NCBI GenBank assembly: GCA_024679065.1
Contig: JAGIQG010000022.1
Coordinates: 14,632,001-14,696,000, forward strand
Length of the DNA: 64,000 bases
Source: Sphyrna mokarran
Taxonomy: Eukaryota
Direction: 5' to 3'
Part shown: positions 1 to 10,900 of the stretch, piece by piece
How the letters are laid out: every line of letters begins with the position of its first letter
Position numbering within the stretch: position 1 is the first letter of the stretch
Made by a program: the position numbers

Positions 1-1859
1 GGGAAACAGGCCCTTCGGCCCAATGAGCCCAATGTTTGGGTACACTGAGGGAGAATTTAGTATGGCTAATGCACCTTACCAGCAGATCTTTCAGATGAAG
101 CGTAACTGGAAAGGGCAGTTTTTGGAAGTTATGATTAAATGTGCTATCTTTTTATTTTTATTTTATTTATTATTATTGTCACAAGTAGGCTTACATTAAC
201 ACCGCAATAAAGTTAAAGTGAAAATTGTGTAGCCGCCACACTACAACACCCGTTTGGATATAGTGAAGGAGAATTTAGCACAGCCAATACACCTTGCCAG
301 CATGTCTTTGGACTGTGGGAGGAAACCGGAGCACCCAGAGGAAACCCATGCAGACATGGGGGGAACATGCAGACTCCGTACAGTGACAGTGCTAAGGTAA
401 GCCGCCAATGTTCTGTTCAACACTGTTCTGTCATCCCGAATGGTTTCAAACTGTCATTTCTCTTGACCCATTCACTTACAAATGTTGACCAATTTATCGG
501 ACTCGGAATCTTACCCATGATCTCCACCTCCATGGTGTGTGTTCCAAAGAGTGGAGGGACATACACAGAACACATGTAGGTTCCCTCATCATTAATGCTG
601 ATACTTTTAATGCGAATGGAAGCATTTCCATTTTTGATTTGATCCATAAATACTTCAACTCCTTTCTCCAAGTGTTCAACCCGCTCATGTCGTCCATTGT
701 AGGAGAACAGTTTCTTCTTGGTTCCTTTGTGTTGGTATCTCCAGTCAATATTAAAGTCAGTACTGTGATCAATCTTGTAGCCGCAGTCCAGAACAAGGTT
801 TCGCTTGAGTTTGGTTCTAATCAGTGGGGTGCTGGTGTGCACAATGTAGCTCACTAACATGCAAAAAGAAAAGGCTATTTATCTTGCATTTTGCAATAAT
901 TAATTATTATTCGTACCCAAGATAAAACCACTTAAAATCCTATTTTCCTCATAGAATAGAATCATAGAATCCCTACAGTGCAGAAGAAGGCCATTCAGCC
1001 CATTGAGCCTGTACTGACAACAATCCCATCCTATCCCCGTAACTCCATATATTTACCCTACTAATCCCCCTGACAGTAAGGGGCAATTTGGCATGGCCAA
1101 TCAATCTAACCAGCATATCTTTCGGACTGTGGAAGGAAACTGGAGCACCTGGACGAAACCCACACAGACACGGGGAGAAACTGCTGACTCCACACAGACA
1201 GTCACATAAGATTGACTGTGCCACCCATCATTTCACAAATCCAGTCACGTGTGGCACAGTGGTTAGAACTAGTGCCTCATAATGCCAAGATGCCAGGTTC
1301 AATTCTGACCTCAGGTGACTGTCTGTGCAGAGTCTGCACATTCTGTCTATATCTGCGTGGGTTTCCTCCGGGTGCTCCAGTTTCCTCCCACACTCCAAAA
1401 ATGTGCTGGTTAGATGAATTGACCATGCTAAATTCTCCCTTAATGTCCCAAGATGTGTAGATTAGATGGATTAATTATAATAAATGTGTGTGGTTACAGG
1501 GATAGGGTATTCGAAAAGGCCTGGGTAAGATACTCAGTAAGGGAGAGTAAATGTTGATGCGATGGGCCGAAAGGCCTCCTGCAGCGTACAGATTCTATGA
1601 TTCATTATGTTACATGGCTACTTACTTTGTTCACCCACATGAATATTGATGGTTCTACTCCATAGAAGGCAGACATATTCCATCACACACGCATATATGC
1701 ATGCACACATGCACGTGTACACACGTGCACACACTCATACATATGCACACACACATGCATGCATGCACACATACATGAGCGCACACATGCATGCGCACAC
1801 ATGGGCATGCACACACCAGTACATGCGTATACACGCTTGCACAAACACACATGTGCGCG

Positions 1860-1915
<56 letters not shown>

Positions 1916-7900: not shown

Positions 7901-10900
7901 GGAGAACTCGCTCTTTAAAATTTCCATGGAATTTTTAACACTCTAAATGGGTTTAGCCTTTCATTTATCATGGAAAATGAATGTTGATAGACCAGCACTC
8001 CTACAGCACTCCACTCTAGTGTCAGTGCCTGTGAATTCACAAAGGGATAGTCCAACTTTACTGATGCAAACTGATATAAAAATACGAGAGTAAATCTTCA
8101 CGAAGACATTTCCAACCTCATAACACATAAGCAGATCAAGGAACAGTTATCCCATTGGCCCTAATCATTGTGGGGTCCTATAAGCCATTATATTCTCCCG
8201 TCATTGATACAATGTGCCAATGGTTTTTTGACTTACCTTAGAACCATAGAGCCTCTGCAGCACAGAAAGAGGTCATCCAATGACCATTTTACCCAAGCAC
8301 CCCCCTCCTTCACACTATCCCTGTAGTTCATGCACATTTACCATGGCTAATTCACTCAACCTACATACCTTTGGACATGCAGAGGCAATTTAACATGGCC
8401 AATCTATATAACCTTAACATTTTGGACATTAACGAGTAATTTAGCATGGCCAATCTACCTAACCTGCACACCTTTGGATGAATGGGGCAATTTAACATGA
8501 CCAATCCACCTAACCTTCACGTTTTTGCACACTAAGGGGCAATTTAGCATGGCAAATTCACATAAGAATTTTAAAGTGCACAAGATTGGGGAAGTGTATT
8601 GAGATGGATAGAAAATTGATTAGCAGAAAGGAAACAGAGTTGAAATTAATGGATGCTTTTCAAATTTGCAGGCAGTAACTAGTAGAGTGCCACAGGGATC
8701 AGTGCCGGGACCCCAGATATTCACAATTTATATTAATGATTTCGATGAGGGAACAAAATTAACATCTCAAAGTTTGCAGCTGATACCAAGTTGGTTGGGA
8801 GGGTGAACTGTGATGAGGATGCAGAAATCCTTCAGAATGATCTGGATAGATTGGGTGAGTGGGCTCATCAATGGCAGATGCAATATAATTTGGATAAGTG
8901 TGAGGGTATTCATTCTGGAAGCAAAAAAAAGTAAGCAGATTACTACCTGAATGGCTGTAAATCGGGAGAAAGGTATATGCAGCAGGACCTGGGTGTTCTT
9001 GTGCACCAGTCGCTGAAGGTAAGCATGCAGGTGCAGCAGGCGGTAAAGAAGGCAAATGGCATGTTGGCCTTCATTGCAAAGGGTTTTGAATACAGGGGCA
9101 GGGATGTGTTGTTGCAACTATACAGGGCCTTGGTGAGGTCATACATAGAACACTGCATGCAGTTTTCTGAAGAAGGATGTTCTTGCTGTGGAGAGAGTGC
9201 AGCTAAGGTTTACCAGGCTGATTCCGGGGATGGCTGAACTGATGTATGAAGGGAGATTGATTAGATTAGGGTTGTTTTCGCTGGAGTTCAGACAATGAGG
9301 GGGGATCTCATAGAGACTTATAAAATTCTAACTGGATTAGATGGGATAGATGCAGGGAGGTTATTCCCACTGGTGGGGGAGTCCAAAACCAGGGGTCACA
9401 GTCTAAGGATTCAAGGTAGACCATTTAGGATGGAGGTGAGGAGAATTTCTTCACTCAGAGAGTAGCGGGCCTGTGGAATTCATTGCCACAGGAAGTAGTT
9501 GATGCCAAAACATTGAATTTATTCAAGAGGCGGTTGGATATAGCACTTGGGGTGAATGGGATCAAAGGTTATGGGGAGAAAGTAGGATTGAGTTGGATGA
9601 TCAGCCATGACTGTGATGAATGGTGGAGCAGTCTCTAAGGGCCAAATGGCCTCCTCCTGCTCCTACCTTCTATGTTCCTACAACCTACCCATCTTTAGAC
9701 AGTATTGGGGAAGTTTAGTATGGCCAATCCACCTAATTTCTACATCTTTAGTCTGTGGGAAGAAACCCACGCAGACACGAGGAGCATGTACAGACTCTAC
9801 ACAGTCACCCAAGGCTGGCGCTGTGAAGCACTGGATAAAAGCAAATTTTTTTTTGCTGGAATCCAAAACCAATAGAGAAAATGCTGGAAAATCTCAGCAG
9901 ATCTGGCAGCATCTGTGAGGAGAGGCAAGAGCTGACGTTTTGAGTCCAGATGACCGTTTGTCAAAGCTTTGACCCAAAACGTCAGCTCGTTTCCTCTCCA
10001 TATAGATTCTGCCAGACCTGCTGGGATTTTTCAGCATTTTCTCTTTTGATGCAGTGAAGCAGCAGTTCTAACCACTGTGCCGCCCCCTTCCTTGTACAAT
10101 GACAGTGTTGTTATATTTAGTGTGCTTCTTTTCTGCTACCACTAGTTACTTTAACCCTGCCATTTTCTCCTGTGCTCGGATCCCCCGAGCATTTGCTAGT
10201 TTCACATTAAAAACTCCGCTTTCCGCAGCCAGTTTCCAACACCAACACAATCATTACGTTACACTCAGCCGTCTGTGGACTCGGCTCGGCTCCTCTGATA
10301 TTCTTACCGGTAGCAAGGATGGAAAAGTGCAGAAGGGATATTTTCCAATACATGGCGGGTCCTCTGTTCGCGCCGCTGCTGTCTATCAGGCCGCTGCCTC
10401 ACACTTTCACTTTCAATTCATACAAGGAAGTTCCTAAAGGTAGTTCGAAGGGACATCAGTTTCGTTTTTGGGAGATGGGGATCTGGTGGTAGAAAAGGGA
10501 GAGATTGGGAGGAGGGGGGAGGCAGTGGAAGAGAGAGAGACTGGGGGGGAGATTGGGCAGACAGAGAGAGATCTGAGGGAGAAATTGGGCAGAGAGGGAG
10601 AGATCTGGGGGAGAAATTGGGCAGAGAGGGCTGACCTGATTATTTCCAGCATTGTTTTTACTGAGTGATTTCAGATTCCCAGCATCTGAGTATTTTGATA
10701 GGGGGATATTTTGATAGAAACAAGAGATACATGTGGGCAAGTTTTTCACACCGAGAATGGTGGATGCCTGGAACATATTGCCAGAGGAGGTGCTGAAAGC
10801 AGGCACATTAGCAACATTTAAGAGCCATCTAGATGGGTACATGAATAGGGAAGGAATAGAGGGATACTGAATAAGGGTAGAAGAATTTTTTTAGTTTAAT

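What the first reader, a model, noticed from the sequence alone, without database searches (positions are those of the whole stretch)
515..10353. Tapasin-family peptide editor outside both known mammalian tapasin loci, likely a third paralogue
Seen: an intact four-exon tapasin-family gene whose visible neighbours are EXO5, LIAT1 and RFLNB. Established: mammalian TAPBP lies in the MHC (DAXX/ZBTB22) and TAPBPR lies beside VAMP1/CD27, whereas LIAT1-RFLNB is the human 17p13.3 block. Inference: this is the separate 'tapasin-like' lineage that I recall being reported mainly from fish, present here in a cartilaginous fish. It could be a functionally uncharacterised MHC class I chaperone dating to the origin of adaptive immunity. 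Genes to the left of the window are unseen.
Basis: partly seen in the sequence, partly recalled or inferred. Interest (0 to 1): 0.72.

Follow-up and report, generated by a model that had tools for sequence, protein, structure and literature searches.

The report
Shark copy of third tapasin gene
This is the front part of a shark gene from the little-studied third branch of the tapasin family, whose other two branches help load peptides onto MHC class I; the branch was already known in bony vertebrates, so finding it in a shark is expected.

Summary
All have GT-AG, phase-1 introns. They encode only residues 1-282 of a ~432-residue protein: signal peptide, tapasin-type N-domain and IgV. The IgC1, membrane and tail exons lie beyond the left edge, so the gene is not "intact".

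All three larger exons sit with chondrichthyan "tapasin-related protein-like" proteins (88% to Mustelus asterias on the IgV exon). That group falls in a clade with lungfish, frog and marsupial proteins, separate from TAPBP and TAPBPR (each clade 100/100). AU tests reject merging it with either (p ~6e-7). Heterodontus francisci carries all three paralogues.

This clade matches the "TAPBPL" lineage of Grimholt 2018, known from teleosts to marsupials. The window gene is therefore a new member of a known kind.

Orthologues have an invariant KKKPY tail, no mid-membrane basic residue and no spare lumenal cysteine. I infer an ER-retained MHC-I chaperone that works outside the TAP/ERp57 loading complex.

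Two ISRE-like sites lie within 120 nt upstream of the ATG. EXO5 and a refilin gene are confirmed neighbours; LIAT1 is not.

The parts
10308..10353 (-). Coding exon 1: start codon and most of the signal peptide (15 codons + 1 nt; phase-1 donor G|GTAAGA)
   Evidence: Sequence. Translation MYWKISLLHFSILAT. Matches the N-termini of P0001 and P0002.
6166..6345 (-). Coding exon 2: end of the signal peptide and first part of the tapasin-type N-domain, including the first conserved Cys and the loop that aligns with the TAPBPR K22-D35 editing loop
   Evidence: Splice sites. tblastn E 5e-26 to P0001. 81-83% identity to P0001 in the tree alignments. Loop mapping.
1981..2262 (-). Coding exon 3: second part of the N-domain (second conserved Cys; acidic linker)
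   Evidence: Splice sites. tblastn E 8e-49. 85% identity to P0001.
515..853 (-). Coding exon 4: IgV domain with the DWRYQH motif and an N-A-S sequon; phase 1 at both ends
   Evidence: Pfam V-set 5.2e-12. Human TAPBPR chains E 2.4e-8. 88% identity to P0001. Splice sites.
1..514 (-). Start of intron 4. The IgC1, transmembrane and tail exons are not in the window.
   Evidence: No tblastn match to residues beyond ~286 of any of the 16 orthologues. SINE-like ORFs.
10403..10414 (-). ISRE/IRF-E-like element GAAAGTGAAAGT, 50-61 nt upstream of the ATG (putative promoter element)
10458..10469 (-). Second ISRE-like element (one mismatch), 105-116 nt upstream of the ATG
15210..24727 (-). Neighbour gene EXO5 (at least two coding ORFs, 15210-15731 and 24131-24727), same strand, upstream of the tapasin-like gene
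   Evidence: Pfam Exo5 5e-26 and 2e-5.
43796..44170 (-). Neighbour gene: last coding exon of a refilin (FAM101) gene; A or B not resolved
   Evidence: Pfam FAM101 4.6e-46, profile positions 111-208 of 209.

Best explanation
The window holds the promoter-proximal region and the first four coding exons of the shark orthologue of the third tapasin-family gene. Grimholt (2018) called this gene TAPBPL, 'TAPBP-like'. It is not the HGNC gene TAPBPL, which encodes TAPBPR. The rest of the gene lies left of the window.

Shown: the exon structure; family membership; placement in a clade that contains cartilaginous and bony vertebrates and is separate from TAPBP and TAPBPR; and a tapasin/TAPBPR fold predicted for the 81-88%-identical Mustelus orthologue.

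Inferred mechanism: the protein is a type I membrane protein held in the ER by a C-terminal dilysine signal (KKKPY in the orthologues). It probably binds MHC class I heavy chain/beta2-microglobulin through the same N-domain/IgV face as tapasin and TAPBPR. The E/D-W-R-x-Q motif is kept, and a hydrophobic residue sits at the tip of the loop that aligns with the TAPBPR leucine-lever loop. It would act as a chaperone or peptide editor.

It lacks three features of its paralogues. It has no mid-membrane basic residue, which tapasin uses to dock on TAP. It has no unpaired lumenal cysteine, which tapasin uses to bond ERp57. It also lacks the TAPBPR C94 needed for UGT1 binding. It therefore probably works outside the peptide-loading complex.

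Two ISRE-like sites next to the start codon suggest interferon control, as measured for salmon TAPBPL genes. My confidence is about 0.9 for identity and lineage and about 0.45 for the mechanism.
For: Exons and splice sites.

Orthologues: 16 proteins with E <= 1e-5 among 67 candidates. All 14 named ones are chondrichthyan, and the best is 88% identical.

Phylogeny: in the quick tree of 64 rows the three clades have SH-aLRT 100/100/98. In the careful tree of 40 rows all three have 100/100, and the window exons group with Mustelus at 97/91. AU tests give p 6.6e-7 and 6.1e-7.

Three paralogues in one species: Heterodontus francisci has P0004, P0268 and P0270, listed with longest-contig lengths of 65.2, 74.5 and 2.15 Mb. 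Five further species (Heptranchias, Pristis, Narcine, Chiloscyllium, Callorhinchus) each show this lineage plus a TAPBP.

Link to Grimholt's TAPBPL: marsupial and frog members sit in the clade. The cysteine she describes 11 residues after tapasin C95 maps to the 'WFT[C/V]' column and is present in five clade members (paper passages).

Fold: AlphaFold2 of P0001 gave pLDDT 89.9 and pTM 0.80. The top Foldseek PDB hits are tapasin (9rcv_B, E 1.5e-25, 423 columns, TM 0.70) and TAPBPR (5wer_F, TM 0.77). B7-H6 and nectins cover only ~220 columns. The family profile matches human TAPBPR at E 1e-93 and tapasin at 1e-57 over the full length.

Features: KKKPY is present in 10 of 10 chondrichthyan orthologues, and 21 of 26 clade members end in KPY. 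A mid-membrane Lys or Arg is present in 16 of 17 TAPBP-clade rows and in none of the 10 chondrichthyan orthologues. (D/E)WR(Y/H)(Q/E) is present in 10 of 10.

ISRE-like sites. Salmon TAPBPL1a, 1b and 2 are induced log2 1.5-3.0 by IFN-gamma (PMC7573153, passages).
Against: The transmembrane and tail features, the IgC1 domain and the fold come from orthologues, not from the window, whose 3' third is unseen.

No binding, localisation or expression data exist for any member of this lineage in cartilaginous fish. The papers I read call the function unknown.

The N-domain ORF alone finds nothing in the PDB by sequence. A single-sequence search aligns only the Ig domains with human proteins.

The residue aligned with TAPBPR I261 is Met in the window and Thr in Mustelus; mutating I261 to Lys abolishes MHC-I binding (PMC4718805).

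Tetrapod clade members have lost the EWRxQ motif, so MHC-I binding may not be general for the lineage.

The ISRE count alone is weak: 2 exact matches against 0.53 expected, and 9 of 100 shuffles reach 2. The importance of their position was judged after seeing them.

The AU groups were named after the tree was seen. The trees are unrooted.

The TAPBPR clade has only one named chondrichthyan row.
Confidence: 0.8

Rival explanations
1. It is simply the shark TAPBPR (or TAPBP) orthologue moved to a new chromosomal place, with no third paralogue.
For: NCBI's automatic names for the orthologues are 'tapasin-related protein(-like)' or 'tapasin-like'. By single-sequence search the closest solved structures are human TAPBPR chains.
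Against: Three clades have 100/100 support and each contains cartilaginous fish. AU tests reject union with TAPBPR (p 6.6e-7) and with TAPBP (p 6.1e-7). Heterodontus francisci has all three, and five further chondrichthyans have this gene plus a TAPBP.
Confidence: 0.02
2. It is a cartilaginous-fish-specific duplicate, unrelated to the TAPBPL of bony vertebrates.
For: Sharks lack the 'unique cysteine' she describes.
Against: The chondrichthyan group is sister (100/100 for the joint clade) to a group with lungfish, frog and marsupial proteins and unnamed representatives. The two groups share the ...KPY tail (21 of 26 rows). Five members of the joint clade carry that cysteine at exactly the +11 column. 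Presence in marsupials fits her description.
Confidence: 0.04
3. It is a truncated or decaying gene copy: only the four 5' exons exist and no functional protein is made.
For: No IgC1, transmembrane or tail exon is in the window. Nothing shows transcription.
Against: Only 514 bases lie downstream of exon 4, while the other introns are 1.1-4.0 kb. All four exons are open with canonical splice sites and 81-88% identity to a full-length orthologue. The end branches of the exon rows are short, 0.07-0.10.
Confidence: 0.05
4. It is a tapasin-family protein that does not act on MHC class I loading. It might be a B7-like surface ligand that regulates lymphocytes, or a chaperone for other Ig-fold or MHC-like clients.
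For: The IgV-IgC part resembles B7-H6 and CD276 about as well as TAPBPR by sequence. Human TAPBPL/TAPBPR protein has been reported as a T-cell co-inhibitory molecule (PMC8103088, abstract only). Tetrapod clade members have lost the EWRxQ motif.
Against: The N-terminal tapasin-specific domain is present and predicted with high confidence. The dilysine tail argues for ER residence. The MHC-contact motif is conserved in fishes.
Confidence: 0.1

Closest known systems
TAPBPL ('TAPBP-like') of bony vertebrates, sensu Grimholt 2018 (PMC5824609); the 'third tapasin-family member' of Kaufman 2022 (PMC9586880)
   Same: It is in the same phylogenetic clade (100/100). It has the same domain order. It lacks a mid-membrane lysine and has a C-terminal dilysine-type tail ending in KPY. 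Function is unknown in both.
   Different: The shark proteins have Val where several bony-vertebrate members have the extra 'WFTC' cysteine. They keep the (D/E)WRxQ motif that marsupial and frog members have lost. I found no paper in the searched library reporting the lineage in cartilaginous fish.
Tapasin (TAPBP), the MHC-encoded bridge of the peptide-loading complex
   Same: The predicted fold matches over ~400-445 aligned columns. Both have an ER-retrieval-type tail. The WRYQ core of the IgV motif is identical to shark TAPBP's EWRYQ. The N-A-S sequon sits in the family-wide conserved GNAS column of alignments A2 and A4. From recall, this column corresponds to the tapasin N233 glycan site that Grimholt mentions.
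   Different: It is a separate clade. It has no mid-membrane Lys/Arg, which 16 of 17 TAPBP rows have. The ERp57 cysteine lies in an insert absent here. Its neighbours here are EXO5 and a refilin gene, and no MHC gene was recognised in the window.
TAPBPR (protein of the HGNC gene TAPBPL), the PLC-independent editor
   Same: The fold matches (TM 0.74-0.77). It lacks a TAP-docking residue, which suggests PLC-independent action. It has a long loop with a hydrophobic tip aligned with K22-D35/L30.
   Different: It is a separate clade. Glu sits in the column of the UGT1-related C94. It has a dilysine tail, while the TAPBPR rows end in varied tails without a shared dilysine-type ending.

Membership tests
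Tapasin family (TAPBP/TAPBPR/TAPBPL) | Tapasin-type N-terminal domain preceding the Ig domains | tested here: met
   Window exons 2 and 3 are 81-85% identical to P0001. A profile of this region hits later-assigned TAPBP rows (P0054 1.1e-7, P0038 3.4e-5) and TAPBPR rows (P0107 8.9e-7). The full-length profile aligns to human TAPBPR from residue 7 and to tapasin from residue 6. The fold of the orthologue matches. The ORF alone finds nothing in the PDB by sequence.
Tapasin family (TAPBP/TAPBPR/TAPBPL) | IgV domain with a Cys pair and the E/D-W-R-x-Q strand | tested here: met
   Pfam V-set 5.2e-12. DWRYQH is in exon 4. It aligns to the VEWRLQH stretch of human TAPBPR.
Tapasin family (TAPBP/TAPBPR/TAPBPL) | Membrane-proximal IgC1 domain, single transmembrane helix and short tail | not testable with these tools
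   These parts lie outside the window. They are present in all 10 aligned chondrichthyan orthologues and in the model of P0001.
TAPBPL sensu Grimholt 2018 | Forms a clade apart from TAPBP and TAPBPR that includes non-placental tetrapods and ray-finned fishes | tested here: met
   Named members are lungfish, frog and two marsupials.
TAPBPL sensu Grimholt 2018 | No transmembrane lysine; ER-retention signal in some members | tested here: met
   Met in orthologues only. It is not visible in the window.
TAPBPL sensu Grimholt 2018 | Unique cysteine 11 residues after the position of human tapasin C95 | tested here: not met
   This column is Val in window exon 3 (WFTVT) and in 10 of 10 chondrichthyan orthologues. 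It is Cys in P0019, P0024, P0032, P0043 and P0117. It also varies among bony-vertebrate members, so it does not define the clade.
Tapasin proper (TAPBP) | Groups with TAPBP; mid-membrane basic residue for TAP; free Cys for ERp57; MHC linkage | tested here: not met
   AU p 6.1e-7. There is no basic residue in the orthologues' transmembrane helix. Exons 2-4 carry only four Cys, all in family-conserved columns. The recognised neighbours are EXO5 and a refilin gene.
TAPBPR | Groups with TAPBPR; unpaired C94 | tested here: not met
   AU p 6.6e-7. The C94 column is Glu in exon 3 (C94 role from PMC5441866).

The most novel reading that the evidence does not exclude
All three tapasin-family lineages already existed in the last common ancestor of living jawed vertebrates. 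The third lineage began as an interferon-responsive, ER-retained editor that loads MHC class I without TAP or ERp57. It may serve class I lineages or peptide sources that bypass the loading complex. Cartilaginous fish, lungfish and some ray-finned fish keep its MHC-contact motif, whereas frogs and marsupials have lost it, which suggests a change of client or function in tetrapods before its loss in placentals.
Probability: 0.25. Interest if true: 0.6.

Novelty: new member of a known kind. Interest (0 to 1): 0.36.

Why it matters
[quoted passage not shown] Showing that cartilaginous fish have it alongside their own TAPBP and TAPBPR places the three-way split before the divergence of cartilaginous and bony vertebrates. 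This is what Grimholt's whole-genome-duplication origin predicts.

The shark proteins are the least diverged members: their branches are short, and both the MHC-contact motif and the KKKPY tail are intact. They are therefore reasonable subjects for the first functional tests.

The result also flags a naming trap. 'TAPBPL' means TAPBPR in HGNC and in the shark MHC paper (PMC10751288) but means the third lineage in Grimholt's papers. NCBI names the shark orthologues inconsistently.

Tried and rejected
- The N-domain ORF (5939-6367, minus strand) found nothing in Pfam or in the PDB by sequence.
- The LIAT1 candidate ORF gave no Pfam hit and no usable Atlas hit, either whole or for residues 60-140. 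Its identity is left open.
- The representative search was dominated by multi-Ig proteins. Only rows with an N-domain match were taken further. P0102 was inspected and dropped because it is not tapasin-like.
- Of the 48 N-domain hits, the trees used 61 rows and then 37 rows, plus three exon rows each time. The careful tree left out rows that were fragments, near-duplicates or the long-branched P0140.
- The second homology search mostly returned teleost TAPBPR.
- No exon joining, and no search or fold of a joined model, was done. The orthologue P0001 stood in for the full-length protein.
- No complex prediction was sent, because no shark MHC class I sequence was in hand.
- Finding the other tapasin loci in the same assembly, and synteny in other species, could not be attempted with these tools.
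- Rooting the family with B7-like proteins was considered and not done, because only the Ig domains would align.
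Full report
**What is in the sequence**

The finding's interval holds four coding exons on the minus strand.
- Exon 1 starts at the ATG at 10353 and ends at 10308. It is followed by GTAAGA and translates to MYWKISLLHFSILAT.
- Exon 2 is 6345-6166.
- Exon 3 is 2262-1981.
- Exon 4 is 853-515.

Every intron begins with GT, ends with AG and is phase 1. The split codons read Ala, Ala and Val. These match the residues at those points in the orthologues: Scyliorhinus torazame has Ala at the second junction, and all have Val at the third. 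The four exons add up to 847 nt, or 282 codons plus one base.

**It is not an intact gene in this window**

The closest full-length proteins are 431-438 aa. After the IgV domain they continue with an IgC1 domain, a transmembrane helix and a short tail. tblastn of all 16 relatives found no match to those parts anywhere in the window. Only 514 bases remain downstream of exon 4, and they carry SINE-like sequence. The other introns are 1.1-4.0 kb, so the missing exons most likely lie just beyond the left edge. Whether they are intact is unknown.

**How I handled the spliced model**

Where a full-length protein was needed, I used the database orthologue P0001 from Mustelus asterias. It is 81-88% identical to the window's exons. 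What is said about the IgC1 domain, membrane helix, tail and overall fold therefore rests on orthologues.

**Relatives**

The IgV exon retrieved 16 proteins with E <= 1e-5 among 67 candidates. All 14 named ones come from sharks, rays or a chimaera. The top hit is Mustelus asterias 'tapasin-related protein-like' at 88%. Their automatic names are inconsistent: 'tapasin-related protein-like', 'tapasin-like' and 'tapasin-related protein'.

A profile of ten of them, searched against 1.84 billion representatives, gave 2280 hits at E <= 0.001. Most of the best 150 are multi-Ig proteins. I kept those that also match a profile of the N-terminal domain alone; 48 of the 164 proteins then in hand did so. 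Two alignment-based searches then supplied named sequences:
- lungfish, frog and two marsupial 'tapasin-related protein-like' proteins;
- tapasin from Callorhinchus ('Tapasin long form'), seven sharks and rays, lungfish, coelacanth, salamanders, turtles and ray-finned fishes;
- TAPBPR from Heterodontus, sturgeon, paddlefish, birds, frogs and teleosts.

**Phylogeny**

A quick ML tree of 64 rows gave three clades with SH-aLRT 100, 100 and 98. A careful tree of 40 rows and 474 columns (LG+C20+F+G4) gave 100/100 for each clade.

The window's exons 2, 3 and 4 were entered as separate rows. All three join Mustelus (97/91) inside a chondrichthyan group (99/97). That group is sister to a bony-vertebrate group (98/96) with lungfish, frog, marsupial and unnamed representatives. 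Within this clade the gene tree follows the species tree.

Holding the chondrichthyan group together with TAPBPR or with TAPBP costs about 50.7 log-likelihood units. Both arrangements are rejected (p-AU 6.6e-7 and 6.1e-7).

Three caveats apply. The groups were named after the tree was seen. The trees are unrooted. The TAPBPR clade has only one named chondrichthyan.

Heterodontus francisci has one protein in each clade, listed with longest-contig lengths of 65.2, 74.5 and 2.15 Mb. Heptranchias, Pristis, Narcine, Chiloscyllium and Callorhinchus each show this lineage plus a TAPBP.

**What is already known**

Grimholt 2018 (PMC5824609; passages read) defined 'TAPBPL' (TAPBP-like) as a third lineage. 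It occurs in salmon, zebrafish, medaka, gar, frog, turtle, alligator, birds and marsupials, and was lost in placentals. She dated it to the second vertebrate genome duplication. She listed three features: no transmembrane lysine, an ER-retention signal in some members, and a unique cysteine 11 residues after human tapasin C95.

The clade found here fits that description.
- It contains marsupial and frog proteins.
- 21 of its 26 rows end in KPY, with lysines placed as in dilysine signals.
- None of the ten chondrichthyan rows has a mid-membrane basic residue.
- A profile alignment to human tapasin puts the ERp57 cysteine in an insert. Eleven residues later comes the 'WFT[C/V]' column, which is Cys in five clade members and Val in all sharks and in the window.

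Kaufman's 2022 review (PMC9586880; passages) states that many non-mammalian jawed vertebrates have three tapasin-family members. It names the function of the third as an open question.

Four full-text searches found no paper describing this lineage in cartilaginous fish. The shark MHC paper (PMC10751288; passages) uses 'tapbpl' for TAPBPR. Grimholt's Text S4 and the shark paper's synteny files might bear on this point.

**Structure and likely mechanism**

AlphaFold2 of P0001 with a 60-sequence alignment gave pLDDT 89.9 and pTM 0.80. Foldseek against the PDB ranks tapasin first (9rcv_B, 3f8u, 7qng, 6eny) together with TAPBPR (5opi_C, 5wer_F). These align over 375-445 columns with target TM-scores of 0.67-0.77. 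B7-H6 and the nectins match only the two Ig domains.

*Shown in the window itself:*
- Exons 2-4 carry four cysteines, all in family-conserved columns, and no extra one.
- The column of TAPBPR C94 is Glu. C94 is needed for UGT1 binding (PMC5441866).
- The IgV strand reads DWRYQH. Shark TAPBP has EWRYQ and TAPBPR has EWRLQH. From recall, these E/R/Q positions are the ones altered in the MHC-binding 'TN6' mutants of tapasin and TAPBPR; I did not see that in a paper.
- The loop in exon 2 (…QNEELQVLGP…) aligns with the TAPBPR K22-D35 loop. A Val/Leu falls at about the column of L30, the 'leucine lever' (PMC6307860; mapping, approximate).
- An N-A-S sequon lies in the family-wide GNAS column.

*Inferred from orthologues:*
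- The invariant KKKPY tail fits the KKXX ER-retrieval rule, which is established knowledge that I recalled.
- There is no mid-membrane basic residue, whereas 16 of 17 TAPBP rows have one.

Taken together, the best reading is an ER-retained class I chaperone or editor that acts without TAP or ERp57. It combines tapasin's retention with TAPBPR's independence from the loading complex.

Several points count against this reading. No experiment exists for the lineage. The residue aligned with TAPBPR I261 is Met or Thr rather than Ile. Frog and marsupial members have lost the EWRxQ motif.

**Regulation**

GAAAGTGAAAGT lies at 10403-10414, and a one-mismatch ISRE-like site lies at 10458-10469. Both are on the gene's strand, within 120 nt upstream of the ATG. 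Window-wide counts are only mildly above chance: 2 exact matches against 0.53 expected, and 16 one-mismatch matches against 7.9 expected. The argument therefore rests on their position, which I judged after seeing them. This would fit the IFN-gamma induction of the three salmon TAPBPL genes (PMC7573153).

**Surroundings**

EXO5 lies upstream on the same strand (Pfam Exo5; ORFs 15210-15731 and 24131-24727). The last exon of a refilin (FAM101) gene lies at 43796-44170. No MHC gene was recognised in the window. The ORF taken for LIAT1 (33082-33606, plus strand) has no support from Pfam or the Atlas. Refilin A versus B was not resolved. The human map positions in the finding (17p13.3, 12p13, 6p21) are recalled knowledge and were not checked here. 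The synteny argument is plausible but unverified.

**Verdict**

The interpretation as a third tapasin paralogue is supported. The lineage itself has been in print since 2018, and gene models exist for many chondrichthyans. This is therefore a new member of a known kind: it extends a known but functionally uncharacterised lineage to cartilaginous fish, as its proposed origin predicts. Interest is moderate to low.

Noticed in passing
window 10403-10414 and 10458-10469 (minus strand): Two ISRE/IRF-E-like elements lie within 120 nt upstream of the tapasin-like gene's ATG. The first is a perfect GAAAGTGAAAGT.
   Followed up: partly
window 10530-10630: A tandem repeat of a 32-nt CT/GA-rich unit (3.1 copies, 88% matches) lies just upstream of the putative promoter.
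   Followed up: no
window 1684-1912: A compound CA-rich microsatellite sits in intron 3: (CA)26 at 1860-1912 and 16-18-nt CA-rich units at 1684-1816. It begins about 70 nt downstream of exon 3.
   Followed up: no
window 8336-9640 (plus strand), 2330-2815 (minus strand), 62979-63407 (minus strand), 34554-34925 (minus strand): Retroelement-like ORF fragments lie in introns 1 and 2 and further along the window. One has a weak reverse-transcriptase match (RVT_1, E 0.0017, below Pfam's cut-off). A 51/103-nt tandem repeat lies at 8336-8561. Many SINE-like ORFs with the same 'HSPKD…' peptide recur across the window.
   Followed up: partly
window 15210-24727 (minus strand): EXO5 here is split into at least two coding ORFs about 8.4 kb apart (Pfam positions 3-61 and 299-367 of 367). 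The middle of the protein was not located.
   Followed up: no
Its identity is open.
   Followed up: partly
alignment A4 / (related proteins, not the window): Within the third tapasin lineage, frog and marsupial proteins have replaced the E-W-R-x-Q strand (for example VTWTFRQK), whereas sharks, lungfish and two unnamed representatives keep it. This hints at a functional shift in tetrapods.
   Followed up: partly
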